Source of the DNA: Candidatus Margulisiibacteriota bacterium
Lineage (GTDB): Bacteria > Margulisbacteria > Riflemargulisbacteria > GWF2-35-9
Direction: 5' to 3'
Length of the DNA: 64,000 nt
NCBI GenBank assembly: GCA_028715625.1
Contig: JAQURL010000002.1
Location: forward strand, 2,438-66,437
The notes under the pieces were generated by a model. It was not told the origin of the DNA. It did no database searches and saw only the letters and a list, made by a program, of their open reading frames with translations. This document shows, one piece after another, positions 30,399 through 50,922 of the stretch. A program made the translations under genes and the position numbers. Position 1 is the first letter of the stretch. The number at the start of each line of letters is the position of its first letter.

Positions 30399-31501
30399 AT
30401 TACATTTATTATTTGCTGCAGAGGACTTAACATAATATATCCGAACATGAATACAATACCTCCGATAACCAGCATAATCAGCAAAACAATCAGATTGGCT
30501 AAACGGTCGTAATGCTCTTCCTCATTGAGATTTAGCTCCTTTATCATTTTTTCTATTATGGATATTTTTTTTGTATTCTCTACCTGCTGGGAAAATATCG
30601 GTTTATACTTTTTAAGTATTGCCATTGATTCCATGGCTTCCGGCAACCCTTTTCCTTGTTTGATCAACAGGCTCAGTGTGGAAAATAAATAGCTTTCATG
30701 AAAATTATTTTGTACTTCATTATATTTATCTATTAAATAATCAAATGAAATATGATATTTAATCGAAGCCTGGTAAATAGTAAATAAAGATTTTTGAAAA
30801 TGTCTGAACATAATACTTTTTATCAAAGGAAGTTTCATAACCATTGCTTTGTTCCGCTTAAACATAAAAAAACCAAAGGTTCCGATAACAAAAATTGCAA
30901 ATATTATTATTAATAAATTAGAGGGATAAAATAAGACTAATAGCAATGGCGTTTTTAGTTGGTAGTATTTATAATAATTACTAATTTGAGGAATGATTAT
31001 CGTTGAAAAAACTGGAATTAATATAATTACCAGAAGAGATAAGGTAGCCGGATAAAATATTTTGCTTAGCATTTTATTGTGTTCAACAATTTTGTTGCTT
31101 AACATCTCGTATATATCCTCTATGGCAGTTTCCATGTTGCCAGTTTCTTTAGCTATGAATAAATAAAGCCTGGCGTTACTTCCTATCAGAGAACCCGAGA
31201 GTAAAGCATCTGAAAAGCTGCTCCCTTTCTTTAATAAACCCAAAACCCTTTTTATCAACGGCTTCCTTGACTTTTTTACAACATTTTTGTAATTATCCAG
31301 AATGTAATAAGCATTCGTTCCTTCCTTATAATATAAATACAAAAATTGAAATAAATCTTTTTGTTCTGGCAATGATAAACCGGCTTTGCCAATATATAAA
31401 ATCAACCATTTGCTTTTCTTAATTTTTTTTAGGGTTGTCTTCGAAAAATAAACTCTGAAAAACCCTTTTGTTAATGAAAAACAAAATGCCTCATAGATCA
31501 T
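30395..31501 (-). CDS. type II secretion system F / PilC-family inner-membrane platform protein (divergent, orphan)
   Basis: 368 aa. Two cytoplasmic helical domains have GspF-like signatures (GSSFSDALLSGSLIGSNARLYLFIAKETGNMETAIEDIYEML; GKGLPEAMESMAILKKYKPIFSQQVENTKKISIIEKMIKEL). Three TMs sit in the canonical T2SSF positions (~150-175, ~190-215, C-terminal LIVLLIMLVIGGIVFMFGYIMLSPL). Confidence 0.55.
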   Translation of the reverse strand: MIYEAFCFSLTKGFFRVYFSKTTLKKIKKSKWLILYIGKAGLSLPEQKDLFQFLYLYYKEGTNAYYILDNYKNVVKKSRKPLIKRVLGLLKKGSSFSDALLSGSLIGSNARLYLFIAKETGNMETAIEDIYEMLSNKIVEHNKMLSKIFYPATLSLLVIILIPVFSTIIIPQISNYYKYYQLKTPLLLVLFYPSNLLIIIFAIFVIGTFGFFMFKRNKAMVMKLPLIKSIMFRHFQKSLFTIYQASIKYHISFDYLIDKYNEVQNNFHESYLFSTLSLLIKQGKGLPEAMESMAILKKYKPIFSQQVENTKKISIIEKMIKELNLNEEEHYDRLANLIVLLIMLVIGGIVFMFGYIMLSPLQQIINVI

Positions 31502-32265
31502 GGAAAAAATAATCCGTTTGTGTTCTTTTCAATAATATTTGCCAGTTCTTTTATGCTGATTCGCTTAATTTCGGCTAATTTGTTTAATATAACAACCAGA
31601 TATTCTGGCTGATTAATATGTTTTCTGTATGGTTCGGGAGTCAGGTATGGCCCATCCGTTTCAATGAGCAATTTGTCTAAAGGTATTTGCTGGATTATAT
31701 CCAAAAGATTTTTATTATTCTTAAACGTTATCATGCCGTTAAGCGAAATATAAATACCAATATCCAACAGTTTTTTAAGTGTATCTAAAGGGCCGGTATA
31801 AGAATGTAATATCATTTTTATTTTCTTGGTATCTTTGATAATCTGGTAAACATCTTCTTCTGCGCCCCTGCTGTGGATTGAAGCGGGAAGCTGAAATTCC
31901 TGTGCTTTTTCTAGAAAATAAATAAAAACGTCTTTTTGTGATTTTTGTTCACTATACGAATAAAAATAATCCAGGCCTATCTCCCCTATTGCTACACATT
32001 TCGGATTATTCTTGAATGCTAATAAAGATTCTTCAAACTCTGCTTTTAAAAAGCTTTTAGCTTCATGCGGGTGACAACCGAAACCATAATACAAACATTC
32101 ATGATTTTGCGATATCTCTTTAACATTCAGACTATCTTTGTAATCTACCCCAAAATTAATAATTTTGTTTACATTATGTTTATTTGCATTATTTAACAAT
32201 TCTTGGATATTTATGGAGCTAAATTTTATATCAGTAAGATGACAATGGGAATCTATTAAATTCAT
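31498..32265 (-). CDS. tatD: TatD-family metal-dependent hydrolase
   Basis: 255 aa with IDSHCHL, GEIGLDY, HSR/HSY and ETDGPYL motifs. Confidence 0.85.
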   Translation of the reverse strand: MNLIDSHCHLTDIKFSSINIQELLNNANKHNVNKIINFGVDYKDSLNVKEISQNHECLYYGFGCHPHEAKSFLKAEFEESLLAFKNNPKCVAIGEIGLDYFYSYSEQKSQKDVFIYFLEKAQEFQLPASIHSRGAEEDVYQIIKDTKKIKMILHSYTGPLDTLKKLLDIGIYISLNGMITFKNNKNLLDIIQQIPLDKLLIETDGPYLTPEPYRKHINQPEYLVVILNKLAEIKRISIKELANIIEKNTNGLFFP

Positions 32266-32269
32266 TATA

Positions 32270-35200
32270 TTAATGAACTACGCCTACCATCCTTACAACT
32301 TTCGTTACCTCACCCTTTGCTTCAGGTGCTTCTATAACCACAAAGTATCCTCCTTTTTCAACATATTCTCCCGCTTCATCTTTCCCATCCCATTCAACTT
32401 CGCAGTCACCCTTAACCGATTTTCCCTGAAGTCCGCCTGTAAATGTGAATTTCTTTACAAAATGACCGATTGAATCATAAACTTTTATCTCTATTCCTGT
32501 ATCCTGATTTAAAAAATAGAATAGTTTGGTCTTTTCTTTCCGCGAATAAAACGGATTGGGATAATTGGAAACATGGCTGAGAACTTTATTGGTTTCAACC
32601 GTCGTAACGGAATTTGTATAAATATAATCGCTTAATAATCCAGCCAGATTTTGTGCTTTTATTCTGTATGTATATGACATGTTGGGCTTGCGATTATACA
32701 TTACAGCCAGTCTGTCTGATGATTTAATGCTGGCAGGATCGCTAATGTAGTTTTCTTTTACTACGGACCAGGATGGCGAGTAATTGCTTTTTTCTTCAAC
32801 AATAAACTTACCGATACCTGATTCTTCCTCTAAAAAATCACCCCAAGTAATTTGGTGAGTAATATTATTTACATCCGTATCGCTAATAACAACTGAAGGA
32901 GGATAATTTGGCAAATGCGGAGGCGAAAAATCCGTTTTAAACTCAAAATACGAAGTCTTAGAGTAATATTTGACGCTGGGATTATCGGTCCTTTCGCTGA
33001 TAGTATTGAGCATAATAAAATATTTTTTATTATCCTCCAAAATAATATTTTCGATGTTTAAAGGTTCATCAATCAATAGACTCCTCGGTGTGGCCAGGGC
33101 TTTTTCTGTATAAGTGGCAATATCTGTGCCTTCTTTTGTGCTTCCTATATAGTATTTGACCCCGACAATATTGTTTCCATTTTTGGTGTAGGAATCATAA
33201 TCGATACCAATTTTTTGTACGTACTGGGAGTAATAATTACCGCTTATAATTGGCTGGCTCGGCCTAAAGGCGTCAATGATTAAAACAGTGTTGGTTGTAA
33301 TCGTTTTATCGGCTTTTGCTGTCCCGTTCTGAAAGATAACATAGGGATTTGCGGTTGTTATGTAATATGTGGTTCTAAATACAAATTGTTTGTCAATGTT
33401 TGCTGTCGGACTAACCGTTGCAACTAATGCGAAACTATTTGATGAGGACAATTCATAAGGATTTGCAAATTGAATCCTGACTTTTTTATCACTATCCATC
33501 CAGGTATTCACCGCATCAAGTTTTGAAGCATCAGTTAACTCGAAATAACTGCTGTTATAGGTTTGGTTTCTTGATAGGGTGTATATGGCAATATCGTTGA
33601 AATCGCTTTTTATAGCTGTTCCATCCAATAGGTAGTCTATACTTCTAAGTTTTGGATTAAAATAGTCTACAGTTAGGTTAAATTTTTGTAAAACTATTCT
33701 GTCTCCTTGATAAACATCTTCCTGCTTGTTGTTATTATGGGTAACATCAATTTTGGAAGTGTATTTCTGAATATTAAACGGGATTGAATTAACCGGGAAT
33801 GAACTGTCAACAACAATATTCGGAGTTTCAATATAGATATCGTTGGCGGTAACTATTCTCATGGAAAATGTTGTTCCTATTGGTGCGTTAATGCCAACTG
33901 CGCCGACAATATAGTATGTGTCATTATCAGATTCATTGGTTAAAGCCTGGTTAATTTTAAAATTAACTGTAATTGTATTTTTTCCGGATTCAAATCTATC
34001 ATTTCCATTACTTATCAGGACGTCAATATCTTTATTAAAAATGCCGTTATAGTCCCCATCTTTGTATATGGCAATTTGTGAAAAGTTGGAGTTATCCAAT
34101 GAACCGGTATATGAAATTTTCATTCCGCTCCAGACTACACTCCCAACATCTGTATAAAGTTTTAGTTTTTTTATTGTGGCTAAATCCGCACCCTGATTAA
34201 ATGTGGGATTCAAGTCGCTATCATCCATATTGTTTATATAAACACGGCTTATCGGTTTAACAAATGTGACGGTTTTGGTTTTAAATGTATTATAAGGATC
34301 TATTGAATAATCAACCATTTCGTTATCATTTACCTGACAAACATTTTTTGTAGCATATTGTAAATACATAGTATTCCCTTTTACCGCTCCGGCCCCTATA
34401 TCAGCAGCCACAAAAAATTTCTTTTTATTGCTGCTCACAATTATTTCATCCTCATAAAAGGGTATATATACTACATGAGTGTTATCCAGTTCTTTATCGC
34501 TGACACCTACAATTACATCATATTTTTTTCTCGGCTCAAACAAACCATTATCATCTCCATCTTTATATATTGTAAATTGACTGATGTCTGAGGCGACATA
34601 ATGACCGTATGCTAAAATTCTAATGCCCTTTAAATGCACAGGCTTATCATTGGCGCTAACTGTAAAAGACATAAATGCAAAATCTTTTTGTCCCTGTTCT
34701 GCATATGGTTGTTTGATGCTTACTTCGTCCTTATATTCCTGCAGCACAAGTTTTTGCCTTAAGGCCTCTCTGGCGATAAGTCTGTTACCCGCCATGTCGT
34801 CACCTATAACTTTAATATATATATTTTTTTGTTTGTCCGAACCTTCCACGTTAATTGTGGTTATATATACATAATCGCTTTTGTTTAGTTTGAGGAAAAC
34901 CAGTTCATAGGAGCTAATTGTCGTTATTTCATCTTCGTTTATTATATAAATTGTCGGGGTGGGGTTATCACACATTTTTTCATTAAAATTTATCGTCACC
35001 CTTAGAGTTTCTGTATAGTTTAAATTATCTTTTTGTTTGTACAAATCCGTCTGCATACTGTACGTCGGTATGGTTATATCAAATGTGATAACTTTTTTAA
35101 CTATTCCAGGGTTTATATAAAGACTTTTCCTGGTCCAGACATATAACGATTTTGGACCTTCCAGCGCATTCTCAACAGCAGTGCCGTTATCAATCCTGTA

Positions 35201-38200
35201 GGATAAGGTTATTTTGTTCTCCCCCGCTGGCCAGGGGTTATTAACTTCGGTTGCCAGTGGTGTGTTATAAGATCCGTCAATTACCCGGTAATAATCATAA
35301 TTCGTAAGAGAGGAGTCCTTACTGATAACAAGATTTACTGTTAGCCATCTTGTGTATTCAGTTCTTTGATCCAGTGAATATATATATAGTCCCGGGTTCG
35401 TTGCCGCATCAATATTGACATTAAAGGTCGCTCCGTCAAAGATAACATCTGTATAATTCAATGCATTATCTGTTATACCAATCCTAAAATAGGCGTTACC
35501 GCTTGCTTCTGCCAAATTTGTATTATACGTTGCCAGCCAAACCGTTCGATAGTTGGAACTTAAAGGGTTGCTCATGGTTTCAGGTAAAACAGGAGTCAAA
35601 TCTACTGTAACCGTGCTGTAAAGACCAGGCAATAAAACCTGCCAAAAGGGGGTAACAATTGCCGCCTCAATATAAGCAGGATCCTGATAAGCAAGCTTGT
35701 TGGAAACCTCCATCTTGGCGGTCATCAAGCCCTTTGGCACTATCACATTGCTATATAAACCTTGAGACCCAACTTCGTCAGGTTGTATTCTGACTAATGG
35801 TTCTGTTGTGTCGTAATAAATGCTACAGGTTACGGATTCGGAAGATATAATACCCAAATCATTGGCAACCCACAAATATAGAAGCTTGGTTTCGTTTTTC
35901 TGACTATCAAATGTGTAATAATAATCTGTAGTCGGGTAGTCTGAAAAATTAGTTATATCCAGGTTTGGTGTGGCTTCCTCGGTAATCCAATATTTTTTCA
36001 CCTGTGAGTCTACATTAAAGGTAACCTTAACTTGATCTAATTTTGTATAATATTGATCTTCAGTTAACGGATTATACATTCTAAAATTTGTTGCCTGTGG
36101 CGGAGATGATGTTTTAATAATAAAATAGGAGTCCCCGTTTAAGCTTGTTGTTTTATTGCCGGCATTATCGAATACTGTTGTTTTGAAAATATACCACCCG
36201 TCCTCAAGTGAGCTGACATTAAATGTACAAAACCATTCTTGCATAGCTGGCATAAGGTTTACAAAGGTCTCAAGGTTTGGGCTGTTTAAATAGTAATATC
36301 CCAACATTGGTGTTATGGTAACTTCTTCTGAAAGTTGAAGTGTAACACTTACAATATCTGAGGTTATTAGGAATGGTTTAATGAAACTTCTGGCAATTGA
36401 ATAGCTTAAGGTGACTGTGGGCGCTGAAACATCAACTTTAATTTCCCTGGTGGCAATTGAACCGTTTCCGGCTCGATCCAGGGCGAATAAAAGAACATTG
36501 ATCGTGTCATGATTATTCGCACTTACCGATAATGTTGCTGTTAACTGCGATGTAAAATCAGAATAATCTACCTGGCCTGTGGACGCCTTATATTTATATG
36601 GTGCATCTCTTAATTGACCGTTTTCTATTGGTACATCCCAGGACAAAGTAATAACCGTCTGGCTGAACCAGCCTGGTAAAGGTAGAACAACCCCGTTAGG
36701 GATATCGGTATCAACAATTGGGGACTGCGCGATAATATCAAATGTGTTGATAATGGGTGGTGTTTTATCAATCTTAATATATAAATTTTTGGTTGTTAAA
36801 TTACCCGCTTTGTCCCGAACCTGTATATAGGCATCTCTCGTGTCGTCCCCTCCCTCAAGCACTCCCAATCCATTGTAGGCCAATTCGTTCTGCCAGTCTG
36901 TCCAGTTTTGTGTTGTTACAGACTTAAGCCTGTATGGTTTTGCTGGCAGTTGCCCGTCATCGTTTGATTGATTCCATTCCAGATTAATTTGTTCATTATC
37001 ATACCAACCACTTTCCGACAAATATCCGTTGCCATCACTATCAGTATTATCCGCCAATATATTAGCATAAAAAGATGCCGGATTTACCATGTCTACATAA
37101 ACATTGGTTGTCTTTTGCAGCACGTTACCTGCGTGGTCTGCTATGGCGCCGACAATATAGTGTGTTAAAGACCCGCCTTCGGTTGTATAAATACTGACAT
37201 CCTTAGAGTTTGTAAATCCCTGGCCGTATGTGGTCTTGCCCAGATCGTTTTTAATAAAATATTTTGCGCTTCTAAGGCCTAAACTATCCGTAACATTTTC
37301 AGAAATAAAAGAACAAAAAACATAATTATCCGAATACCACCCCAAATCAGGAGTAACTCCTCCGCGATGCGGGCCGTCGTCTTCTAGTTTAAGCGTATAG
37401 GATCCTGTGGGTAAAGTAACATCAACCGTCACAAAAACTGAATTTGTAACTATATTACCTGCTTCATCAGCACATTCTATAGAAATTTCATTTCTTATGT
37501 TGGCCGATACCTTAAAATTAGCTACCGTATTTTCTGCTTGCCAATTACCCCATCCATTGTTGTTAATTTTAATACGATAGGGTTTGTCTCTCAGTTTCCC
37601 CCCATCTATTGGCTGCTGCCAGCTTAAATCTATTGTATCATCATCGTACCAGCCAGGTTCAGGGTCTATACCGTCACCATTGCTGTCAGCATCCGGTACA
37701 AGGGTAATATTAAGATTTGATGGTGTTGTTACGTCGGCTTTTATATATTTGTTTATACTTTTAGTCCAACCAGCCTTATCTACAAATAACGCCGTAAAAA
37801 TAATGGGTGTATTATCCTGCGGTATAACTGTAAATTCCGAAAAAGTCGGATTTGAGGAGGGATTTTGACTATAAGAAACGTCTTTGTCGGTTTTCAGGTA
37901 TAGCCTGGATAATCCGGCACCGCCACTATCAATATCCCATGTCAGAACAATATTAAGGGTAGACTGATCATACCAGTTCGCATTTGGCAAAACACCATCG
38001 TTCTGGTTATCACTATCATCAGGAAGAAAATTAATATCGACAAAATTAAATGAAATCGGCGTCTCGCTTACATATACAATCCCTGATGTGGTCTGAATAT
38101 TTCCGGCTGCGTCTTTAGCAATTAATACAAATTCATTCCCGGTTAAAGATTCCGACGTTCCAACCATAACGTCTGAAATATTGGTCCAGTTTGATGTTGT

Positions 38201-39838
38201 TGAGTTCAGGCCTGACGTATTTCTATAGGCAAAAGGTTGATTTGGAAGTGCGCCGCCATCAGATACCGACCACATCCAGCGAACTTCCGACCCGTCATTG
38301 TACCAACCTTTTTCCGGCAACATTTGTCCATCAGCTTTATTTGTATCATCCATCAGTAGCAAATAATTTATTGTAGGAGGCTGAATATCAACTTTTACGT
38401 TTGCATATGCTTCCCTGACATTCCCTGCTTTATCTGCAGCCCTCACATAAACCGTTCTGTTTGTATTATTGCCTGGTTCAATATATAGGGCATTTGCATT
38501 CATCGTACTTTGAAATTGATTTATTGAAATAGTGTCTCCAATTTGAGCGGACCAATAGGGCCAACCTACATCGCTTTTTATTTGGTAAGGCTGATCTTTT
38601 AAGGCTGTGTCACTTGGTTGAGTCCAGCTAAAACTGACAGTTTCATCATTGTACCAGCCTTGTTCCGGTACTGACTGGGTTGGATTATTGTCCGTATCAT
38701 CTGCTATAGTTACATAAAAAGTCCCTGGCAGTGTCTGGTCTACATTTACCGTTATCGACATGGTTACATAGTTATAAACATTATCTAAAAGATACACAAC
38801 GATTTCACGGTCTGTGCCTTCCAGTGTTTTTATACTAACTGTGACGTTTGAGCTGGAATACAGCGATTGAACAATTGATTCATAATAAAACTGGCTTCTT
38901 ACGCCACTTCCGGTATTATCTGTAGCCAAATTGTTAATTTTCACAGAAACGGTTAGCTGGTCATACCAGCCTGTTTCTGGAAGGATACCGTCTCCACCGT
39001 TATCCGACAAATCTGGCAATAATTGAAAACTAGAACCGTTAATTGCCGGTGCCTGATTATCAATCATTATATTTTTGGTGTTTATATAAACCGTGTTATC
39101 GATAGTTGCATTTCCTTGAGGAAAAACCAGGTTAATTTTTAGCTCCACGTTTCTGCTAATACTTGCTGAGGTTGGTAGAACAAAATTATTGAAATCAAAC
39201 AAACCGCTTGTATTTATATTTACGACCGAACCCTCTGCTTTATTGTCAAAAAAAATCCTCGCCGATACATCCTGCAGTGGATAAATGTTCTGATTATACT
39301 TATATGTGACTTTGCCGCTACAATGCAACTGTTCGGCTGAACCTATTCCTCCTTTAAACCAGGTTCCCTCCGGACTTAGGTACATATATTTGGAATCGCA
39401 GGTGATGTTAAAAGTGTTTACAACAAACTGTTCGTTATAAGTTAGGTTATCGTTATAAATATAATCGTTACTGCCATCATAGCTGTTGATGGTTACAGAA
39501 TATATTCCATCTTGTATAAATGAATTTTGCCACTTAATTTTAAAATTCAAAGAACATTCAGACCCATATTTGCCTCCACTGAAACTATCAAGCAAATCAA
39601 AACCCTGTACAATAGTACATGTCGGTTGATTTGCAGGAGTATATATAACGACAATTTTATCTCCGATATTAATTGTCAGCGTGTCATCATCCGATTTCAG
39701 CTGGATTGCTTCATTTTGCATGATATTCATATAGTTTGTAGTAATTCCTGATGATTTGAAAACTACTTCACTTATGGAACCGTAACTGAATACTGCTAAA
39801 AAAAGAAAAAGGCTGATTAAACGTATTAGACGGGTCAT
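32270..39838 (-). CDS. giant (2,522 aa) multi-domain cell-surface protein with a C-terminal FlgD-Ig / T9SS-type sorting-like domain
   Basis: Signal peptide MTRLIRLISLFLFLAVFSYG. Eight tandem ~105-118-aa Ig-like repeats (aa ~258-1138), further beta-sandwich modules, three ~160-aa repeats (aa ~1705-2190), an FN3-like module (aa ~2305-2415), and a C-terminal ~100 aa NYPNPF...IEIKVYDSIGHFVKKF...VEWDGKDEAGEYVEKGGYFVVIEA. Confidence 0.8.
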   Translation of the reverse strand: MTRLIRLISLFLFLAVFSYGSISEVVFKSSGITTNYMNIMQNEAIQLKSDDDTLTINIGDKIVVIYTPANQPTCTIVQGFDLLDSFSGGKYGSECSLNFKIKWQNSFIQDGIYSVTINSYDGSNDYIYNDNLTYNEQFVVNTFNITCDSKYMYLSPEGTWFKGGIGSAEQLHCSGKVTYKYNQNIYPLQDVSARIFFDNKAEGSVVNINTSGLFDFNNFVLPTSASISRNVELKINLVFPQGNATIDNTVYINTKNIMIDNQAPAINGSSFQLLPDLSDNGGDGILPETGWYDQLTVSVKINNLATDNTGSGVRSQFYYESIVQSLYSSSNVTVSIKTLEGTDREIVVYLLDNVYNYVTMSITVNVDQTLPGTFYVTIADDTDNNPTQSVPEQGWYNDETVSFSWTQPSDTALKDQPYQIKSDVGWPYWSAQIGDTISINQFQSTMNANALYIEPGNNTNRTVYVRAADKAGNVREAYANVKVDIQPPTINYLLLMDDTNKADGQMLPEKGWYNDGSEVRWMWSVSDGGALPNQPFAYRNTSGLNSTTSNWTNISDVMVGTSESLTGNEFVLIAKDAAGNIQTTSGIVYVSETPISFNFVDINFLPDDSDNQNDGVLPNANWYDQSTLNIVLTWDIDSGGAGLSRLYLKTDKDVSYSQNPSSNPTFSEFTVIPQDNTPIIFTALFVDKAGWTKSINKYIKADVTTPSNLNITLVPDADSNGDGIDPEPGWYDDDTIDLSWQQPIDGGKLRDKPYRIKINNNGWGNWQAENTVANFKVSANIRNEISIECADEAGNIVTNSVFVTVDVTLPTGSYTLKLEDDGPHRGGVTPDLGWYSDNYVFCSFISENVTDSLGLRSAKYFIKNDLGKTTYGQGFTNSKDVSIYTTEGGSLTHYIVGAIADHAGNVLQKTTNVYVDMVNPASFYANILADNTDSDGNGYLSESGWYDNEQINLEWNQSNDDGQLPAKPYRLKSVTTQNWTDWQNELAYNGLGVLEGGDDTRDAYIQVRDKAGNLTTKNLYIKIDKTPPIINTFDIIAQSPIVDTDIPNGVVLPLPGWFSQTVITLSWDVPIENGQLRDAPYKYKASTGQVDYSDFTSQLTATLSVSANNHDTINVLLFALDRAGNGSIATREIKVDVSAPTVTLSYSIARSFIKPFLITSDIVSVTLQLSEEVTITPMLGYYYLNSPNLETFVNLMPAMQEWFCTFNVSSLEDGWYIFKTTVFDNAGNKTTSLNGDSYFIIKTSSPPQATNFRMYNPLTEDQYYTKLDQVKVTFNVDSQVKKYWITEEATPNLDITNFSDYPTTDYYYTFDSQKNETKLLYLWVANDLGIISSESVTCSIYYDTTEPLVRIQPDEVGSQGLYSNVIVPKGLMTAKMEVSNKLAYQDPAYIEAAIVTPFWQVLLPGLYSTVTVDLTPVLPETMSNPLSSNYRTVWLATYNTNLAEASGNAYFRIGITDNALNYTDVIFDGATFNVNIDAATNPGLYIYSLDQRTEYTRWLTVNLVISKDSSLTNYDYYRVIDGSYNTPLATEVNNPWPAGENKITLSYRIDNGTAVENALEGPKSLYVWTRKSLYINPGIVKKVITFDITIPTYSMQTDLYKQKDNLNYTETLRVTINFNEKMCDNPTPTIYIINEDEITTISSYELVFLKLNKSDYVYITTINVEGSDKQKNIYIKVIGDDMAGNRLIAREALRQKLVLQEYKDEVSIKQPYAEQGQKDFAFMSFTVSANDKPVHLKGIRILAYGHYVASDISQFTIYKDGDDNGLFEPRKKYDVIVGVSDKELDNTHVVYIPFYEDEIIVSSNKKKFFVAADIGAGAVKGNTMYLQYATKNVCQVNDNEMVDYSIDPYNTFKTKTVTFVKPISRVYINNMDDSDLNPTFNQGADLATIKKLKLYTDVGSVVWSGMKISYTGSLDNSNFSQIAIYKDGDYNGIFNKDIDVLISNGNDRFESGKNTITVNFKINQALTNESDNDTYYIVGAVGINAPIGTTFSMRIVTANDIYIETPNIVVDSSFPVNSIPFNIQKYTSKIDVTHNNNKQEDVYQGDRIVLQKFNLTVDYFNPKLRSIDYLLDGTAIKSDFNDIAIYTLSRNQTYNSSYFELTDASKLDAVNTWMDSDKKVRIQFANPYELSSSNSFALVATVSPTANIDKQFVFRTTYYITTANPYVIFQNGTAKADKTITTNTVLIIDAFRPSQPIISGNYYSQYVQKIGIDYDSYTKNGNNIVGVKYYIGSTKEGTDIATYTEKALATPRSLLIDEPLNIENIILEDNKKYFIMLNTISERTDNPSVKYYSKTSYFEFKTDFSPPHLPNYPPSVVISDTDVNNITHQITWGDFLEEESGIGKFIVEEKSNYSPSWSVVKENYISDPASIKSSDRLAVMYNRKPNMSYTYRIKAQNLAGLLSDYIYTNSVTTVETNKVLSHVSNYPNPFYSRKEKTKLFYFLNQDTGIEIKVYDSIGHFVKKFTFTGGLQGKSVKGDCEVEWDGKDEAGEYVEKGGYFVVIEAPEAKGEVTKVVRMVGVVH
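33269..34726 (-). repeat. three ~160-aa coding repeats in the giant surface protein
   Basis: Units share Q-G-x-(D/R)...(F/I)-x-(L/F)...ending in SQFTIYKDGDDNGLFEP, SQIAIYKDGDYNGIFNK and NDIAIYTLSRNQTYNSS. Confidence 0.5.
36425..39067 (-). repeat. eight tandem coding repeats (~105-118 aa each) in the giant surface protein
   Basis: Each unit opens with (L/V)P-x-x-GWY(D/N) followed by a P(Y/F)-x-(I/Y/L)K element. Examples: PETGWYDQ, PEQGWYNDETVSFSWTQP..DQPYQIK, PEKGWYNDG..NQPFAYR, PNANWYDQ, PEPGWYDDD..DKPYRIK, PDLGWYSDN, SESGWYDNE..AKPYRLK, LPGWFSQ..DAPYKYK. Most units close with D-x-AGN (ADKAGN, KDAAGN, VDKAGW, ADEAGN, ADHAGN, RDKAGN, LDRAGN). The repeats are diverged at the DNA level. Confidence 0.8.
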
Positions 39839-39841
39839 AGA

Positions 39842-40642
39842 TTATGTTTTATTAGGCTCTTCTTTTAATATTGGCTCAATAAAACCGTCTCTCTCCAGAT
39901 TTTTGGATAGTTCTATTATATATTGCTGTGATTTATTAATATCAGACTTGGAATATTTGTTCTTTCCCAATTCTATACCCTGTTGCACTATGTTTTTTAC
40001 TCCTTTTGGCAACACATCATAAAGGCGGCTTATTTGTTCCTGAGGCTGATGACAAAAAGCTATAGACAGGATATCGCTCTGTATCTCTGAAAAAATTCTG
40101 AGAAAATCCTTTTCGCTAACCTTAAATAAATCTTCGAACATAATCATTATACCTCTAAAATCTTTTTCGTTTTCAGGATATTTAACCTTATAAACATTTG
40201 ATAAATTAATTTTTTGATCAATATCGAGATATTCCAGAATTTTCGCCAGAACATATTTGCCTCCAAACTGCTCTGTAAGTAATCTTCTTAAGATTTTATC
40301 AAAATTTTCGATTTCTTTTTTTGTATATTGAATCAGAGACATCAATTCAGAAATTATTATGGCTTTTATATCATCCTGAAATTCCTCAAGAATTTTTTCA
40401 GCAATTTCTGGCCTGACTGATGATATGACCAGACAAACATATTTTAAGTTTTCCGGTTTTGCTCCCAGAATTTTTTTTAAAACATGAGCTGTATGATATG
40501 AGTTATATTCATTTATATAAGTAAAAAAATTCTGGGGCTGGGTTATATTCTGGTCTATTGGCTTCTCCATTTGTATAGAATCCTTTATATCATCTCTGGT
40601 TACTTTATTGGCTTTATTTACAGGCTTAACTTCTTTACTCAT
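39842..40642 (-). CDS. FliG-like protein (middle + C-terminal domains only, no FliF-binding N-domain)
   Basis: 266 aa. KPENLKYVCLVISSVRPEIAEKILEEF resembles FliG-M EHPQTIALILSxLxPxxAAxIL. FGGKYVLAKILEYL matches the GG linker region. IMIMFEDLFKVSEKDFLRIFSEIQSDILSIAF resembles MFVFEDIxxLDDRSIQxxLREVDxxxLAxAL. DINKSQQYIIELSKNLERDGFI resembles VEEAQQKIVxxxRRLEEAGEI. 8-nt overlap with the upstream gene. Confidence 0.7.
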   Translation of the reverse strand: MSKEVKPVNKANKVTRDDIKDSIQMEKPIDQNITQPQNFFTYINEYNSYHTAHVLKKILGAKPENLKYVCLVISSVRPEIAEKILEEFQDDIKAIIISELMSLIQYTKKEIENFDKILRRLLTEQFGGKYVLAKILEYLDIDQKINLSNVYKVKYPENEKDFRGIMIMFEDLFKVSEKDFLRIFSEIQSDILSIAFCHQPQEQISRLYDVLPKGVKNIVQQGIELGKNKYSKSDINKSQQYIIELSKNLERDGFIEPILKEEPNKT

Positions 40643-42131
40643 GACTTATTCTTATAAATCCTTCCTTCTCTAAATTTTGTGACATAGTAATAACCTTCTG
40701 CCGCGCTTGTTCCACATCATATCTTGAAGCAGTGTTGGTTTTCAGATTTAGCCACTGATCCACCATTGCCTGTACTCCCTTGGGCAATCTATCGGTAATC
40801 TTCCTCTGCAAGGTTGAGTCTATGTGTACCAGTGATGTGGCGATTACTTCGGTGTCTATGTCCTTAAAAATAGTTGCCAAGCTGTCTTCGTCCAATTCTA
40901 AAATGTCCTCAAACAGCACAATCAGAGAGTTTAGTTCGTCGGCAACTGCCGGGTACTGTTTTTGAATGATACGCAAAATTTTCTTTTTGTCTTCACCTGA
41001 AATTTTCTCCATAATTTGCTGTAACCGATATTTCCCACCGAAAAGATAATCAATGTTGCTTTTAATTTCTTCTTCCAAAACAGCCATATCTTTTTCGGGA
41101 TAATGTTGGAGATTTATTAGGTTATTACAAATTTCCGATTGAATTTTTATTGGATATTCTATTAGTATCGATGCCGCCAGTTTAAATGGCAAACAAGCCA
41201 TTACCACCGCTATTGTACGTGGTGATGCCTGTTGTAGTGCGATTTTAACCTGTAACAAAAATTTTAATTTATAAATATTTTCTTCATTAATAAAATTGAA
41301 ATAACGAATTCCATTGCCCAGAATGTTTTTATTCATTATTTCTATCTTTTCTTCTTCCTCTTTTTTCTTTTTCTCATCTTCCAGCATTTTTTTCTGTTCG
41401 TCAGTTGATTCAGGCTTAACCTCCCCTGCTCCCTTTGCTGCTATGTATTGGGTGGGTTCTTCAGTGCCTATTGGTTCTTTCTTCTTCCCCTTGAATAATA
41501 ACCTCCAGATAATTACCAGAAAAATTATACCGGCTAAAGCAGCCACAGCTAAGATAACTGCATTGAGCAAGCTGAACTTGCTTCTGGTCGTAAGTTTTTG
41601 TTTTGATAAAGCTTCTTTTCTTTCCAGTTCGCTAAAGTTTTCCTTTAAAATTGTAAGCTTGTCTCCTTTTTCCTCATCCAGATTTAAAAATTTTGTTACG
41701 AAAAGTTTCAGGCTTCTTAGTTCTCCCAATTTGATTTTTGAGTCCAGAATGATTATAACTTCCTTGTTTTTGATGATTGGGGATTTTTCTATTACTTCAT
41801 AATTCAAAGGCAGAGAGTTTTCGCCTCCCGCACCTTCTGTTAAAAAACGTAATGAGGGTATTCCTGGCACAATTGTGCTTTGTTTTTTTGTTCCGCCCAT
41901 GTTTTCCACACCCTCAATTTCCGGTATTTTTGTGTAGTTTATTTCCCATTTTGTTTCTTCGGCAATTAGAGAAATATAAACTATAGATTTCCCCTCACCC
42001 AAAATTTTATTTAAAGCAGATTGAACCGTATCTTCCAAATGCTTTTGAAGCATGAGTGTGCCTTGAGATTGGGAATAGGAAAATTGCAGTATAAAAATTA
42101 GCGGCAATAACAGCCTTAAAAACTTCCTCAA
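40635..42131 (-). CDS. chimeric membrane protein: FliF/SctJ-like ring-building periplasmic domain, TM, K/E linker, FliG-like (M+C) cytoplasmic domain
   Basis: 498 aa. TTG start with a GGGGG SD 5 nt upstream. Hydrophobic leader aa 5-20, periplasmic aa ~22-185 (LEDTVQSALNKILGEGKSIVYISL; EVIIILDSKIKLGELRSLKLFVTKFLNLDEEKGDKLTILKENF), TM aa ~186-212, K/E-rich linker, then a FliG-like region aa ~270-498 (ASPRTIAVVMACLPFKLAASILIEYP; FGGKYRL; LIVLFEDILELDEDSLATIFKDIDTEVIATSL; YDVEQARQKVITMSQNLEKEGFI). Confidence 0.65.
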   Translation of the reverse strand: MRKFLRLLLPLIFILQFSYSQSQGTLMLQKHLEDTVQSALNKILGEGKSIVYISLIAEETKWEINYTKIPEIEGVENMGGTKKQSTIVPGIPSLRFLTEGAGGENSLPLNYEVIEKSPIIKNKEVIIILDSKIKLGELRSLKLFVTKFLNLDEEKGDKLTILKENFSELERKEALSKQKLTTRSKFSLLNAVILAVAALAGIIFLVIIWRLLFKGKKKEPIGTEEPTQYIAAKGAGEVKPESTDEQKKMLEDEKKKKEEEEKIEIMNKNILGNGIRYFNFINEENIYKLKFLLQVKIALQQASPRTIAVVMACLPFKLAASILIEYPIKIQSEICNNLINLQHYPEKDMAVLEEEIKSNIDYLFGGKYRLQQIMEKISGEDKKKILRIIQKQYPAVADELNSLIVLFEDILELDEDSLATIFKDIDTEVIATSLVHIDSTLQRKITDRLPKGVQAMVDQWLNLKTNTASRYDVEQARQKVITMSQNLEKEGFIRISHE

Positions 42132-43234: not shown

Positions 43235-45541
43235 ATGTTTTCAAGATTTACTCAAAAAGCTATACAAGTCATTATGTTTGCTCAGGAAAAAGCAAAAAAA
43301 ATAAAGATTCCTTTTATAAATAATGAATTGCTTTTATATGGAATTTTAAAAACTGATGACCCTTTGATTATTACAGCGCTGAATAAAGTCGGCATTGATA
43401 TCAATTATTTCAGAAGTATCATCCAGAAACACCTGCAAAACCAAAAAGGGACCTATAAAAACGAAACCATTCCTTTTTCTCCTCAGGTTAAGCTCACTTT
43501 GTCTCAGGCTTGGGATGAAGCCCGTCAACTAGGTCATAACCATGTTTCTGTGGAGCATTTATTTCTGGCGATACTAAAGGATTCTTCTCCCGGCATTACA
43601 AATGTTATCATTGAAGCGAATATTGATATTTTAAAGATTAGAAACGCTATTTTGGAGGTTCTTGGTGAAAGCTATTCTGCCTCCACGCTTCCTCCGGAAG
43701 AAGTTCGGCCGCAGACACCTACACTTGATTTATATAGTTTGGATCTAACCTTGCTGGCCAAAGAAAACAAGTTGGATCCGGTTATCGGTAGAGAATTTGA
43801 AATTAAAAGAATTATCCAAATCTTAAGTCGACGAAACAAGAACAATCCGGTTTTGACAGGTGAAGCTGGGGTTGGTAAAACGGCAATTGTTGAAGGTCTT
43901 GCTCAACGCATAGTTAATGCACAGGTCCCTCCAAATTTGCTAAATAAAAGAGTTGTAACGCTGGATCTGGGACTACTGGTAGCCGGGACACGTTTTCGGG
44001 GTGAATTTGAAGAAAGAATTAAAAAAATTCTGGACGAAATTAAGAACGACAAAACTACTGTTTTGTTTATTGACGAGCTACATACAATTATAGGCACGGG
44101 TAACTCGGAAGGTTCTCTAGACGCAGCCAATATGTTAAAACCTGCTTTGGCGCGTGGTGAAATACAGTGCATTGGCGCAACAACACTTAATGAGTTTCGT
44201 AAGACAATTGAAAATGACGCTGCTCTGGAAAGACGTTTTCAATCTATTCTTATTGACCCCCCTACTCCTGAAGAAACACTGGAAATTCTCAAGGGTCTCA
44301 GAAAAAGATATGAAGATTACCATAAGGTAACGATTACAGATGAGGCTCTGGAAGGAGCTGTCTATTATTCTTCCCGCTATATCACCAATCGTCAGTTACC
44401 TGATAAGGCGGTTGACCTTATCGATGAGGCAGCTTCCACTGAGATGTTGGAAGCATCCAAAACAAATTTATTGCAAAACAAACCCAAAAAAGAAATACTG
44501 GTAACCAGAGAATCAATTATCAGTGTTGTTTCCATTTGGACCGGAATACCCCTGAAAGAGCTTTCCCAGTCTGAAGCCGCTCGCTTAAAAAATATGGCTG
44601 AAGATATTGCCAAACATGTTATAGGTCAAACAGAAGCCATTCAGGCACTGTCCAAATCCATCAAGCGGACCAAAGCCGGCTTGAAAGATCCCAAAAGACC
44701 TACGGGTTCATTTTTGTTCCTGGGCCCCAGCGGTGTCGGTAAAACTGAGCTGGCCCGCCAGCTGGCAAAATATTTATTCGGCAAAGAGGATGCCATAGTT
44801 CGTATTGACATGAGTGAATATACCGAAAAGCACACTATTTCCCGATTAATCGGCTCTCCACCCGGATATGTAGGCTACAACGAAGGCGGTCTTTTGAGTG
44901 AGCCTGTTAGAAAAAAGCCTTATTCTATCGTTCTTTTTGATGAAATTGAAAAAGCCCATCCGGAAGTAATTAATTTGTTGCTGCAGATTATGGAAGACGG
45001 TCGATTGACTGATTCCACGGGGAAACTTGTTGACTTTAAAAATACCATTGTAATTATGACCTCTAATGTAGGAGCTAAAACTATTGAAAACACATCTTCC
45101 TTCGGTTTCCGCACAACTCAGGATGACAAAGCTGATTACGAACGCATGAAAGAAAAAATAATGGGTGAAATAAAGGAAGCTTTCAGCCCGGAATTTATCA
45201 ACCGTATTGATGATATAATAATTTTTAAAGCATTAACTAAGGAATATCTTGGACAGATTGCCCAGCTTTTTCTTGATGATTTGAACACAAGAGTTAAAGA
45301 TAAAGAGCTAATCATAAAGCTTTCTCAAGCTGCATTGGACTTTTTAATAGATAAAGCCTATGTGCCAAACAAGGGTGCTCGTTTGTTGCGTAAAGTAATA
45401 CAAGATAATATCGAAGACAAGATAGCTGATTTGTTAATTGATAAAGATTCCATTCAAAATTCCACTATCCTGGTAGATGCTAAAGATAAAGAATTGAAAT
45501 TCACTGTTAAAACAAAAAAAACCCCTAAACCGGCTAATTAA
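43235..45541 (+). CDS. clpC: ATP-dependent Clp protease ATP-binding subunit (ClpC/ClpA-type, two AAA+ modules)
   Basis: 768 aa. Double Clp_N repeat, Walker [16 protein letters not shown] and [15 protein letters not shown], the signature [23 protein letters not shown], and an FGF tripeptide at the position of the ClpP-docking loop. I recognised no long ClpB-type middle domain and no clear UVR motif. Confidence 0.85.
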
Positions 45542-50715: not shown

Positions 50716-50922
50716 ATGACCAAGGATGCTTTTCCTGAAGACTTTTTGCAAACCAAAGATGAATTGAAGAAGCTTTTGGCTCATGCTCTTCCAAAAATAA
50801 AGGAATTAAATGCCAAGCAAAAATCTGGTGATGATTTAACTGCTGTCCAGCAAGCAGCGCTAGTAAAATATAAACGTATTATTTTTCTGTTGAAGGCTTC
50901 AAAAAAAATTAACTTATTTTAG
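50716..50922 (+). CDS. small hypothetical helical protein (68 aa)
   Basis: ORF only (MTKDAFPEDFLQTKDELKKLL...), with no recognisable family. It follows lepB closely, and its stop overlaps the stop of the convergent flagellar-family gene. Confidence 0.3.
   Translation: MTKDAFPEDFLQTKDELKKLLAHALPKIKELNAKQKSGDDLTAVQQAALVKYKRIIFLLKASKKINLF

What the first reader, a model, noticed from the sequence alone, without database searches (positions are those of the whole stretch)
32270..39838. 2,522-aa surface protein with three different internal repeat families
After a signal peptide the protein contains:
1. A Cys-containing N-terminal region.
2. Eight tandem units of ~105-118 aa (aa ~258-1138). Each opens with P-x-x-GWY(D/N) and P(Y/F)xxK and closes with D-x-AGN followed by a V-D-x-x-x-P boundary. 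That pattern is typical of Ig-like or OmpL47-type beta-sandwich adhesin modules.
3. More degenerate modules with the same D-x-AGN ending (FDNAGNKTT, GDDMAGNRL).
4. Three ~160-aa units ending in (I/Y)YKDGD-x-NG-x-F.
5. An FN3-like module (YTYRIKAQNLAGLLSDY).
6. The C-terminal sorting-like domain.

The repeats are diverged at the nucleotide level, so this is an old, maintained array rather than a recent expansion. At 7.6 kb it is the largest gene in the window and sits in the middle of the FliG-like/GspF-like operon.
Basis: seen in the sequence. Interest (0 to 1): 0.65.

Follow-up and report, generated by a model that had tools for sequence, protein, structure and literature searches.

The report
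Giant Ig-repeat surface protein, Margulisbacteria
This is a real 2,522-residue secreted protein of an uncultured Margulisbacterium, built from about twenty beta-sandwich modules and a type-IX-like sorting tail; every relative keeps the same module count and encodes it directly behind two flagellar-rotor-like (FliG) genes, which hints at an undescribed envelope machine.

Summary
The ORF is real. An independent assembly of a landfill metagenome reproduces it collinearly, and 12 independent orthologues share its layout.

- **Repeats.** There are four internal repeat families, not three: A x8 (Ig/FN3-like, "GWY...DxAGN"), C x3 alternating with D x2, and B x3 (a 165-aa beta-sandwich with no significant PDB match). 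An FN3 domain and a C-terminal domain follow.
- **C-terminal domain.** It resembles a T9SS type A sorting domain and the FlgD Ig domain (22.0 bits against a cut-off of 23 for TIGR04183).
- **Age of the array.** All 12 orthologues, down to 30% identity, have exactly 8 A units. In 88 of 88 cases a unit's nearest relative is the same-position unit of another species. The array is old and fixed.
- **Best reading.** It is a Sec-exported, fixed-length fibrous surface protein, probably sorted through its tail with PorV-family outer-membrane proteins; two PorV-like genes lie in the window.
- **Neighbourhood.** In every orthologous locus where the upstream DNA is held, the gene follows a Chlamydia-type FliF::FliG fusion and a FliG_MC-only protein; the shorter contigs show part of the pair. 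MotAB sits between them and the giant gene or a few kb away. An unrelated contig links the same tail, PorV-TPR and membrane-anchored FliG-like proteins. A functional link is plausible but not shown.

The parts
39779..39838 (-). Sec-type signal peptide (aa 1-20, MTRLIRLISLFLFLAVFSYG); no lipobox Cys
   Evidence: Read from the translation. Orthologues also start with a hydrophobic leader.
39053..39778 (-). N-terminal region, aa 21-262. It is the distal 'head' if the protein is anchored by its C-terminus. No known family matches.
   Evidence: No Pfam, NCBIfam or PDB-sequence match. Conserved among orthologues, including C173, KGGIGSAE and NNF.
36419..39052 (-). Eight tandem A units (aa 263-1140). 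They are Ig/FN3-like beta-sandwiches with an acidic D-x-D-x-N-G-D-G-like loop, then PExGWY(D/N), closing with DxAGN...VDxxxP.
   Evidence: phmmer and HMM; hhalign at least 90.9% for all pairs; AF2 model and Foldseek; 8 units in all 12 orthologues.
34739..36418 (-). Five further modules, C1-D1-C2-D2-C3 (aa 1141-1700). C is Big_13/Big_3-like and ends in DxAGN/DNALN. D has the '...LYLW/VW...YD(T/I)xxP' type.
   Evidence: Big_13 at 1201-1232, 21.6 bits. Orthologues reach E 7.8e-10. hhalign: C1-C2 94.5, C1-C3 92.4, D1-D2 83.6.
33269..34738 (-). Three B units (aa 1701-2190) of about 165 aa. They are all-beta sandwiches with no Pfam family and no significant structural match.
   Evidence: HMM; hhalign 98.2 and 94.5; AF2 pLDDT 84, pTM 0.79; Foldseek PDB best TM about 0.5 and no E<1e-3; no Pfam match.
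32924..33268 (-). Connector region X (aa 2191-2305), unassigned
   Evidence: No match. Conserved among orthologues.
32594..32923 (-). FN3 domain (aa 2306-2415)
   Evidence: phmmer against PDB: contactin-2 FN3, E 6.7e-5.
32273..32593 (-). C-terminal sorting-type domain (aa 2416-2522): SNYPNPF...WDG...KGGYFVVI...GVVH-COOH. Related to T9SS type A CTDs and the FlgD Ig domain.
   Evidence: FlgD_ig 22.2 bits. TIGR04183 22.0 bits against cut-off 23, plus the PorU and PorZ CTDs. PDB sequences: FlgD and PorU CTD. 316 relatives found.
39842..40642 (-). FliG_M+FliG_C-only protein (266 aa), 3 nt upstream of the giant gene
   Evidence: Pfam and NCBIfam. Conserved directly upstream in 8 loci.
40635..42131 (-). 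Membrane-anchored FliF::FliG-fusion-like protein (498 aa): leader, periplasmic domain of about 170 aa, TM helix, charged linker, FliG_M, FliG_C
   Evidence: Translation. Profile against PDB: FliG_MC E 3e-42, and FliF residues 421-500 E 0.002. Family search.
31498..32265 (-). TatD-family hydrolase, 4 nt downstream. It is a housekeeping gene sharing the gene string.
   Evidence: Pfam E 1.9e-76.
30395..31501 (-). Divergent GspF/PilC/ComGB-family polytopic membrane protein (368 aa). It is the last gene of the string.
   Evidence: Pfam T2SSF E 6.8e-13. NCBIfam ComGB E 2e-16, far below cut-offs. Conserved position.
25254..30398 (+). Convergent 1,714-aa secreted protein with an invariant C-terminal FSGKLIF. 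It is a candidate giant outer-membrane beta-barrel.
   Evidence: Translation. No family match. The C-terminus is identical in L003, L005 and L006. Conserved position.
45534..47042 (-). MotA (46266-47042) and MotB (45534-46265) stator pair
   Evidence: Pfam and NCBIfam. In L003 and L006/L011 a MotAB pair lies between FliG-short and the giant gene.
14728..15954 (+). PorV/PorQ-family outer-membrane protein with a TPR-like tail (408 aa)
   Evidence: NCBIfam PorV_fam E 2.6e-22, 79.8 bits against cut-off 90. Full-length homologue of the L008 PorV-TPR, E 2e-39.
2020..3189 (-). Second, weaker PorV/PorQ-family candidate (389 aa)
   Evidence: NCBIfam PorV_fam E 3.9e-8 over the whole profile.

Best explanation
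The gene encodes a giant, acidic, fibrous envelope protein of an uncultured Margulisbacterium related to Marinamargulisbacteria, from a landfill metagenome.

**Proposed pathway**
- It is exported by Sec through an N-terminal signal peptide.
- Its last ~107 residues form a small beta-sandwich of the T9SS type A / FlgD-Ig kind. I propose this is a sorting and anchoring signal handled by PorV-family outer-membrane proteins, and possibly by the neighbouring 1,714-aa putative outer-membrane barrel.
- The protein therefore ends up on the cell surface, anchored by its C-terminus.

**Proposed structure**
- Between leader and tail lie about 20 beta-sandwich modules: head, 8 A, C-D-C-D-C, 3 B, X and FN3.
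- They would form a rod roughly 80 nm long, with the unassigned N-terminal region at the tip.
- Acidic loops at the start of the A units may bind Ca2+ and stiffen the rod, as in SiiE.

**Proposed role**
Each module is individually orthologous across species and the number never varies. This suggests the protein works as a fixed-length spacer or adhesin, not as an expandable antigenic repeat array.

**Shown:** the ORF, the repeats, the folds of A and B, the fixed module number, the tail homology and the synteny.
**Inferred:** Sec export, outer-membrane translocation through the tail and PorV, surface exposure, Ca2+ binding, rod length and the adhesin role.
For: **Gene and repeats**
- ORF and leader.
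- Repeats.
- The A unit is an Ig/FN3/BIg sandwich. Foldseek finds the SiiE BIg domains among its best matches. A weak profile match goes to a DAAGN-containing FN3 of chitinase A1.
- FN3.

**C-terminal domain**
- All 9 tested tails hit TIGR04183 and the CTDs of PorU and PorZ. The window tail scores 22.0 bits against a cut-off of 23.
- The PorU CTD also appears in the PDB sequence search.
- Homologous tails in L008 pass TIGR04183 and sit beside two proteins that pass the PorV_fam cut-off.

**PorV-family and barrel candidates**
- The window has a full-length homologue of that PorV-TPR protein, E 2e-39.
- The 1,714-aa neighbour has a leader and an invariant beta-signal-like C-terminal Phe.

**Fixed architecture**
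- 8 A units in 12 of 12 orthologues at 30-55% identity.
- 88 of 88 units have their nearest neighbour at the same position in another species. Mean identity is 47% for the same position against 24% within one protein.

**Other**
- Acidic composition: D+E 297 against K+R 196, with D-rich loops.
- Independent assembly.
Against: - The window tail misses the curated TIGR04183 and Pfam thresholds. It is about as similar to FlgD's Ig domain.
- No core T9SS component (SprA/Sov, PorK/L/M/N/U) was recognised in the 64-kb window. T9SS is not described for this phylum, as far as I know.
- The window PorV-like proteins are below the curated cut-off. They lie 17 and 30 kb from the gene.
- There is no experimental localisation.
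- The 1,714-aa protein has no family assignment, so its barrel nature rests only on its termini.
Confidence: 0.6

Rival explanations
1. The giant protein is the working part of a new rotor-driven envelope machine. A ring made of the FliF::FliG fusion and the FliG_MC protein is turned by MotAB. That rotation powers secretion of the giant protein, or its movement along the surface for gliding-type motility. This would be analogous to GldLM and SprB in Bacteroidota, but built from flagellar-motor parts.
For: **Conserved order in Margulisbacteria**
- FliG-long, FliG-short, then the giant gene is seen in full in the window, L002-L006 and L016. L001 is cut at its 5' end and shows only FliG-short. 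This holds down to 30% identity of the giant protein.
- MotA-MotB is inserted exactly between FliG-short and the giant gene in L003 and L006/L011.
- In the window, gaps or overlaps of 3-8 nt suggest translational coupling.

**The same parts in an unrelated contig**
- L008 clusters tail proteins, a giant protein with B units, two PorV-family proteins and a protein with the same leader-periplasm-TM-FliG_MC layout.
- PorV-TPR followed by the membrane-anchored FliG-like gene recurs in L014 and L015.

**Other**
- A paralogous giant protein in Margulisbacteria GWF2_35_9 lies next to CheD, CheR and FliM.
- FliG-long is a shortened FliF fused to FliG_MC, like the non-flagellar Chlamydia fusion (PMC4768692).
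Against: - Gene order alone does not show a shared function. The same string carries housekeeping genes: SSB, TatD, and MetRS in other genomes.
- Some Margulisbacteria carry flagellin and FlgV (PMC7018530, PMC11607428). The window has an FlgE/F/G-family gene. The FliG and MotAB genes may therefore simply belong to a flagellum.
- The MotAB position is not fixed.
- Two small tail proteins (P0220, P0274) have no such neighbours.
- There is no functional data.
Confidence: 0.25
2. The protein is an accessory structure of a flagellum, such as a periplasmic scaffold, a sheath or a hook-associated fibre. It is recruited through its FlgD-Ig-like tail, and its position next to the FliG and MotAB genes reflects a flagellar regulon.
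For: - The tail matches the FlgD Ig domain.
- Flagellar-type genes lie nearby: FliG-like x2, MotAB and an FlgE/F/G-family gene.
- A paralogue sits next to FliM, CheD and CheR.
Against: - It has a Sec leader, not a flagellar type III export signal.
- It has no FlgD N-terminal domain.
- The tail carries the NYPNPF-type motif of T9SS tails. In L008 it travels with PorV-family proteins and no flagellar axial genes.
- Stand-alone leader-plus-tail proteins exist.
Confidence: 0.08
3. It is an ordinary giant adhesin or S-layer-like coat protein with no link to its neighbours. It is released or anchored by an unrelated route, and the synteny is a frozen accident of a small, compact genome.
For: - Profiles of the A unit hit 17,906 cluster representatives, mostly giant multi-repeat proteins.
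- The neighbourhood (SSB, HU, ClpC, TatD, RimM/TrmD) is conserved as a block in all loci. The synteny is therefore not specific to the motor genes.
Against: - The tail, PorV-TPR and membrane-FliG association recurs in a lineage with otherwise unrelated gene order.
- MotAB is inserted precisely at the FliG/giant junction in two genomes.
Confidence: 0.07

Closest known systems
T9SS type A cargo proteins of Bacteroidota (for example gingipains, and PorU/PorZ with their own CTDs; TIGR04183 / PF18962)
   Same: - Sec leader plus a beta-sandwich tail of about 100 aa at the extreme C-terminus, with an N-Y-P-N-P-F-type start.
- All family tails hit TIGR04183 and the PorU and PorZ CTDs.
- PorV-family proteins are present in the window and adjacent in L008.
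   Different: - The window tail is 1 bit under the curated cut-off.
- The distinctive conserved ending KGGY...(I/V)GV(I/V)H-COOH is shared with tails named from Elusimicrobiota and Endomicrobiia MAGs.
- The phylum is outside the FCB group.
- No SprA or PorKLMNU was seen in the window.
Giant BIg-repeat adhesins such as Salmonella SiiE (PDB 2yn3/2yn5)
   Same: - Long tandem array of Ig-like sandwiches. The SiiE BIg domains rank second among the PDB matches of the A unit and give the highest TM-scores among the first ten hits (TM 0.62-0.64).
- Acidic inter-domain loops that could bind Ca2+.
   Different: - SiiE is a T1SS substrate with no Sec leader and no CTD.
- It has 53 near-uniform repeats.
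- Here there are four distinct module families and a strictly fixed module count.
SprB / RemA gliding adhesins with the GldLM motor (Flavobacterium)
   Same: A giant repetitive surface protein with a C-terminal sorting domain, encoded in organisms with a proton-channel stator. This is the functional analogy behind the novel reading (PMC8986121 for the GldLM-SprB system).
   Different: - SprB uses a type B CTD. TIGR04131 is hit by only 1 of 9 tails, at E 0.073.
- The candidate motor here is MotAB plus FliG-like proteins, not GldLM.
- No homology to SprB was tested or seen.
FlgD hook-cap protein (Ig-like domain, PF13860)
   Same: The tail aligns to the FlgD Ig-like domain.
   Different: It has no FlgD N-terminal domain, it carries a Sec leader, and it is 2,522 aa rather than about 140-290 aa.
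Chlamydiaceae FliF-FliG fusion (PMC4768692). This is the closest known relative of the upstream neighbour, not of the giant protein.
   Same: - Layout: leader, shortened periplasmic region, TM helix, then a FliG-like cytoplasmic part.
- The L008 homologue weakly hits the chlamydial model PRK05934.
- The profile hits both FliF and FliG.
   Different: - The Margulisbacteria protein carries both FliG_M and FliG_C.
- It is followed by a second FliG_MC gene, and it travels with MotAB and the giant protein.

Membership tests
T9SS type A cargo | N-terminal Sec signal peptide | tested here: met
   MTRLIRLISLFLFLAVFSYG, read from the translation. No predictor was available.
T9SS type A cargo | C-terminal domain reaching the curated TIGR04183 / PF18962 threshold | tested here: inconclusive
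   The window tail scores 22.0 bits against cut-off 23 (E 1.1e-4). All 9 family tails hit the model, best E 2.9e-8. The homologous L008 tail scores 29.6 bits and passes. In Pfam, Por_Secre_tail appears in only 1 of 7 orthologues, at E 0.082.
T9SS type A cargo | PorV shuttle protein encoded in the genome | tested here: inconclusive
   PorV_fam 79.8 bits against cut-off 90 for 14728-15954, and 33.3 bits for 2020-3189. The first is a full-length homologue (E 2e-39) of an L008 protein that passes at 125 bits.
T9SS type A cargo | Core machinery (SprA/Sov, PorK, L, M, N, PorU sortase) in the genome | not testable with these tools
   Only a 64-kb window is available. None was recognised among the genes scanned.
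T9SS type A cargo | Tail cleaved and cargo linked to anionic LPS | not testable with these tools
   This is a biochemical feature.
Bacterial Ig-like Big_13 / Big_3 domains | Match above the Pfam gathering score | tested here: not met
   In the window protein, Big_13 scores 21.6 bits against 27, and only at C1. Single A units hit Big_13 in 7 of 56 cases, best E 0.002. Whole orthologues reach E 7.8e-10.
Ig/FN3-like beta-sandwich fold (A unit) | Predicted fold superposes on Ig/FN3/PKD/BIg structures | tested here: met
   AF2 pLDDT 81.5. Foldseek TM 0.6-0.67 to SiiE BIg, FN3 and PKD domains, at E about 3e-3 to 3e-2.
FN3 (module at aa 2306-2415) | Significant sequence match to FN3 domains | tested here: met
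   Contactin-2 FN3, E 6.7e-5.
FlgD hook-cap protein | FlgD N-terminal domain (PF03963), no Sec leader, about 140-290 aa | tested here: not met
   Only the Ig-like part matches, and far below the equivalog cut-offs.
   No such family is listed at E up to 1.
T1SS RTX giant adhesins (SiiE/LapA type) | No Sec leader; C-terminal T1SS signal or RTX repeats | tested here: not met
   A leader is present. The C-terminus is a CTD-type sandwich and no RTX match was found.
T9SS type B cargo (SprB type) | TIGR04131 / CHU_C tail | tested here: not met
   TIGR04131 is hit by 1 of 9 tails at E 0.073. CHU_C is hit by 1 of 7 orthologues at E 0.0016.

The most novel reading that the evidence does not exclude
Margulisbacteria, and an unrelated lineage represented by contigs L008, L014 and L015, possess an undescribed envelope-spanning machine.

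- A rotor is built from a natural mini-FliF::FliG fusion plus a FliG_MC protein and is driven by MotAB.
- It works together with PorV-family outer-membrane proteins and a giant outer-membrane barrel.
- It secretes, anchors or moves giant fixed-length proteins that carry a T9SS-like tail.

This would be a flagellar-motor-derived counterpart of the T9SS/gliding apparatus. The 2,522-aa protein would be its main cargo or adhesin.
Probability: 0.25. Interest if true: 0.85.

Novelty: new variant of a known kind. Interest (0 to 1): 0.55.

Why it matters
Giant Ig-repeat surface proteins are common, so the protein alone is of moderate interest. Three things raise it.

1. **Fixed module count.** The number and the identity of each module are frozen across a deep clade, down to 30% identity. 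This is unusual for repeat adhesins and points to a length-dependent role.
2. **Tail outside the FCB group.** A T9SS-type sorting tail and PorV-family proteins occur in the sister phylum of Cyanobacteria, outside the FCB group where T9SS is known.
3. **Rotor-like neighbours.** The gene is always coupled to a FliF::FliG-fusion-like protein and a FliG_MC protein, often with MotAB. The same tail, PorV and membrane-FliG combination recurs in an unrelated lineage.

If the link is functional, it would be a new use of flagellar rotor parts. It would also be a new route for surface-protein sorting or gliding in uncultured phyla. One of these has an animal symbiont, 'Ruthmannia eludens', that can be imaged.

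Tried and rejected
**Methods that gave nothing**
- Self-BLAST of the whole protein returned only the identity hit, because contained hits are culled. I replaced it with fragment phmmer, HMM iteration and hhalign.
- Pfam and NCBIfam on the whole protein gave only sub-threshold FlgD_ig and Big_13 hits.
- PDB sequence searches of the N-terminal region and the B units gave nothing significant.
- Foldseek of the B unit found no match with E<1e-3.
- The promoter and terminator scan was at chance level for promoters, 78 found against 71±9 expected. It does not define the operon.

**Literature**
- Searches for Marinamargulisbacteria motility or secretion, for a 'FlgD Ig-like' tail with T9SS, for Elusimicrobia with PorV, and for FliG with PorV found nothing describing this system.

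**Contexts that did not help**
- P0220 and P0274 are small tail proteins with no related neighbours.
- P0178 is cut by the contig end, and its neighbour is a HEAT-repeat protein.
- P0062 is too long for the context tool.

**Readings rejected**
- Assembly artefact (and the 12 collinear orthologues).
- Recent repeat expansion.
- A giant FlgD.
- An RTX/T1SS adhesin.
- OmpL47-type domains.
Full report
**1. The observation**

The minus-strand ORF 32270-39838 encodes 2,522 aa and is the longest gene in the window. Its start is a typical Sec leader (MTRLIRLISLFLFLAVFSYG). The protein is acidic (D+E 297, K+R 196) and rich in T, N, S, I and D.

At the DNA level there is no tandem array. Only a 23-nt block encoding PExGWY recurs four times.

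An independent assembly (Logan contigs of a landfill-metagenome run) has one 15,683-bp contig covering window 30000-41881. It shows three mismatches, no gaps and flat depth. A collapsed or chimeric assembly is excluded.

**2. Repeat anatomy**

- **A units.** One A unit used alone as a phmmer query finds the other seven (i-E 1e-5 to 7e-19). An iterated HMM places eight units at aa 270-1140.
- **Profile-profile comparison.** I used sub-alignments of 11 orthologues, an HHrepID-like test. Every A-A pair gives at least 90.9% probability. B1-B2 gives 98.2% and B2-B3 94.5%. C1-C2 gives 94.5% and C1-C3 92.4%. D1-D2 gives 83.6%. No cross-family pair exceeds 24%.
- **Result.** The protein holds four repeat families: A x8, C x3 interleaved with D x2 (aa 1141-1700), and B x3 (aa 1701-2190).
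- **Motifs.** They are a little less regular than reported. GW[YF] occurs in 7 of 8 A units and DxAGN in 6 of 8. YKDGD occurs in two B units only, and in the middle of the unit.
- **Cysteines.** Only one of the four N-terminal Cys residues (C173) is conserved.

**3. Folds and families**

- **A unit.** Modelled from 56 stacked units, it is a seven-strand sandwich (pLDDT 81.5). Its best PDB neighbours are SiiE BIg domains, FN3 and PKD domains (TM 0.6-0.67, E about 3e-3 to 3e-2). The profile weakly matches the DAAGN-bearing FN3 of chitinase A1 (E 0.006). Pfam sees A units only below threshold (Big_13 in 7 of 56). An exhaustive profile search nevertheless finds 17,906 cluster representatives, mostly giant multi-repeat proteins. 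The domain type is common but poorly modelled.
- **C modules.** They are Big_13/Big_3-like.
- **B unit.** It gives a confident all-beta model (pLDDT 84, pTM 0.79). It has no Pfam family and no PDB match with E<1e-3. The nearest are sialidase N-terminal carbohydrate-binding-like domains and cohesins, at TM about 0.5.
- **FN3.** Residues about 2311-2400 are an FN3 domain (contactin FN3, E 6.7e-5).
- **N-terminal region.** The first 240 residues after the leader match nothing.

**4. The C-terminal domain**

In the whole protein, the last ~107 residues hit FlgD_ig (22.2 bits, cut-off 27). Scanned alone, they hit TIGR04183 'T9SS type A sorting domain' at 22.0 bits (cut-off 23). They also hit the CTDs of PorU, PorZ and a T9SS-dependent M6-like protein, and the FlgD Ig domain. 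PDB sequences give FlgD (E 0.005) and the PorU CTD (E 0.03).

A profile of nine tails retrieves 316 proteins. The few that carry a taxon name are 'FlgD immunoglobulin-like domain containing protein' from Elusimicrobiota or Endomicrobiia MAGs. They share SNYPNPF...WDG...KGGY... and a conserved extreme C-terminus, (I/V)GV(I/V)H. Some are stand-alone proteins of a leader plus the tail. The tail is therefore a distinct subfamily of the T9SS type A / FlgD-Ig fold.

**5. Relatives and the fixed module number**

The word-indexed search of 5.8 billion proteins finds only six full-length homologues (42-50% identity, 2,525-2,580 aa). GTDB genomes add six loci, named Candidatus Marinamargulisbacteria or Margulisbacteria GWF2_35_9. 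A contig labelled Riflemargulisbacteria adds one more orthologue, P0018.

After removing duplicates there are 12 orthologues at 30-55% identity to the window protein.

- All 12 have exactly eight A units, and nearly all have three B units.
- Units are orthologous by position. Mean identity is 47% for the same position in different species and 24% between positions within one protein.
- The nearest neighbour of 88 of 88 units is the same-position unit of another species.

The array predates the clade and shows neither expansion nor homogenisation.

Paralogues and more distant family members do vary: P0011 has 13 or more A units in 3,252 aa, and P0062 is 5,692 aa with many C/D modules. They keep the same B-FN3-tail end. 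The fixed count is therefore a property of this orthologue group. That argues for selection on length and on individual modules.

**6. Neighbourhood**

In the window the genes are packed with gaps or overlaps of 3-8 nt, in this order: FliG-long (498 aa), FliG-short (266 aa), the giant gene, TatD, then a divergent GspF/PilC-family protein. A 1,714-aa gene lies convergent to them.

- **FliG-long.** It has a leader, a periplasmic domain of about 170 aa, a TM helix, a charged linker and FliG_M+FliG_C. Its profile matches FliG_MC (E 3e-42). With its periplasmic end and TM it also matches FliF residues about 420-500 (E 0.002). It is a natural shortened FliF::FliG fusion, a layout so far described for Chlamydiaceae (PMC4768692).
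- **FliG-short.** It is FliG_MC only.
- **Conserved order.** FliG-long, FliG-short, then the giant gene is conserved wherever the upstream DNA is available: the window, L002-L006 and L016. L001 is cut at its 5' end and shows only FliG-short.
- **MotAB.** In L003 and L006/L011 a MotA-MotB pair lies exactly between FliG-short and the giant gene. In the window and L005 MotAB lies about 5 kb away, beyond ClpC.
- **The 1,714-aa neighbour.** It has a leader, no family match and an invariant C-terminal ...FSGKLIF. That ending is typical of outer-membrane barrels; this is an inference.
- **PorV candidates.** The window also encodes two PorV/PorQ-family candidates, at 14728-15954 (79.8 bits, cut-off 90) and 2020-3189.
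- **Flagellar-type gene.** There is an orphan FlgE/F/G-family gene.

**7. An independent occurrence of the same parts**

Following the tail profile led to contig L008 (429 kb, organism unknown). Within 20 kb it has:

- a 2,435-aa protein with B units;
- a 585-aa protein matching the FN3 and tail of the giant protein;
- two small tail proteins, one of which passes TIGR04183;
- two proteins that pass the PorV_fam cut-off;
- a 627-aa protein with the same leader-periplasm-TM-FliG_MC layout, alignable to FliG-long over its whole length.

The window's 408-aa PorV-like protein is a full-length homologue of the L008 PorV-TPR gene (E 2e-39). That gene lies between a tail protein and the FliG-like gene. 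Two further contigs, L014 and L015, repeat the order PorV-TPR, membrane FliG-like, large protein.

These are few cases, and two small tail proteins have unrelated neighbours. Even so, the recurrence in a lineage without shared synteny is the best evidence that tail cargo, PorV-family proteins and membrane-anchored FliG-like proteins work together.

**8. Interpretation**

The best-supported reading (confidence 0.6) is a Sec-exported fibrous envelope protein of about 20 beta-sandwich modules. Its T9SS-type tail directs it to, and probably anchors it at, the outer membrane with the help of PorV-family proteins. The unassigned N-terminal region would sit at the distal tip.

A rod length near 80 nm follows from about 4 nm per Ig-like domain (general knowledge, inferred). 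Ca2+ binding by the D-rich loops is inferred by analogy with SiiE.

What the protein binds is unknown.

The more novel reading (0.25) is that the FliF::FliG fusion, the FliG_MC protein and MotAB form a rotor. That rotor would power secretion or surface movement of this protein, by analogy with GldLM and SprB.

Against it:
- the gene string also carries housekeeping genes;
- flagellins and FlgV homologues are reported from some Margulisbacteria (PMC7018530, PMC11607428);
- a paralogue's neighbours include FliM, CheD and CheR.

A flagellar role for the FliG and MotAB genes therefore cannot be excluded with a 64-kb window. A canonical flgBC-fliEFGHI operon was seen in L013, but its organism is unknown.

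**9. Verdict**

The protein is a new variant of a known kind, a giant tail-bearing Ig-repeat surface protein. It has an unusual frozen architecture, an unmodelled 165-aa module, and a conserved and suggestive association with flagellar-rotor-like and PorV-like genes.

Noticed in passing
window 40635-42131 (-): A 498-aa protein with a leader, a periplasmic domain of about 170 aa, a TM helix and FliG_M+FliG_C. Its profile hits both FliG (E 3e-42) and the FliF segment before TM2 (E 0.002). It is a natural shortened FliF::FliG fusion like the chlamydial one. About 24 relatives turned up; the few that could be placed are Margulisbacteria. TPR-tailed versions occur in another lineage.
   Followed up: partly
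window 25254-30398 (+): A 1,714-aa secreted protein with no family match and an invariant C-terminal FSGKLIF, even at 35% identity. It may be a giant outer-membrane barrel. It is always convergent to the gene string.
   Followed up: partly
window 14728-15954 (+) and 2020-3189 (-): Two PorV/PorQ-family candidates in a phylum not known for T9SS. The first has a TPR-like tail and is a full-length homologue of a PorV-TPR gene that sits next to a membrane FliG-like gene in L008, L014 and L015.
   Followed up: partly
L003:8507-9989 and L006:8478-9970, compared with window 45534-47042: A MotA-MotB pair lies between FliG-short and the giant gene in two genomes. In the window and L005 it lies beyond ClpC. 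The two versions are only 33-48% identical, so they may be different paralogues.
   Followed up: partly
window 50919-51782 (-): An orphan 287-aa FlgE/F/G-family rod/hook protein lies between the signal peptidase I and YchF genes. No other flagellar axial genes are nearby.
   Followed up: no
L007 (Margulisbacteria GWF2_35_9, MFRH01000022): A paralogous giant protein, P0011 (3,252 aa, 13 or more A units, same B-FN3-tail end), is followed by the CheD, CheR, HDOD and FliM genes. It is preceded by a further open reading frame running from the locus start to 9954.
   Followed up: partly
L008 (ENA ERZ25039590 contig_44710), 1-20396: A cluster in an unidentified bacterium holds a giant B-unit protein, FN3+tail proteins, two PorV-family proteins, a PMT_2/TPR protein, a Collar-domain protein, a membrane FliG-like+TPR protein and a 1,628-aa protein.
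   Followed up: partly
P0220, P0268, P0214, P0274: Small stand-alone proteins of 100-150 aa, most with a recognisable signal peptide before the tail (P0274, 102 aa, starts directly at the tail motif). They end in (I/V)GV(I/L)H. Their role is unknown.
   Followed up: partly
window 30395-31501 (-): An orphan, fast-evolving GspF/PilC/ComGB-family membrane protein with no adjacent ATPase or pilin genes. It is conserved at the end of the gene string in all loci (27-33% identity).
   Followed up: no
window 32265-32270, compared with L001-L006: All other loci have a gene of about 1.5 kb between the giant gene and TatD. It is called as a methionyl-tRNA synthetase (tRNA-synt_1g family) in the P0007 contig. 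The window lacks it there.
   Followed up: no
L012 (GCA_036681025.1): A 693-aa FliG-like protein is followed by FlbD, MotA and two MotB genes in another unidentified genome.
   Followed up: no
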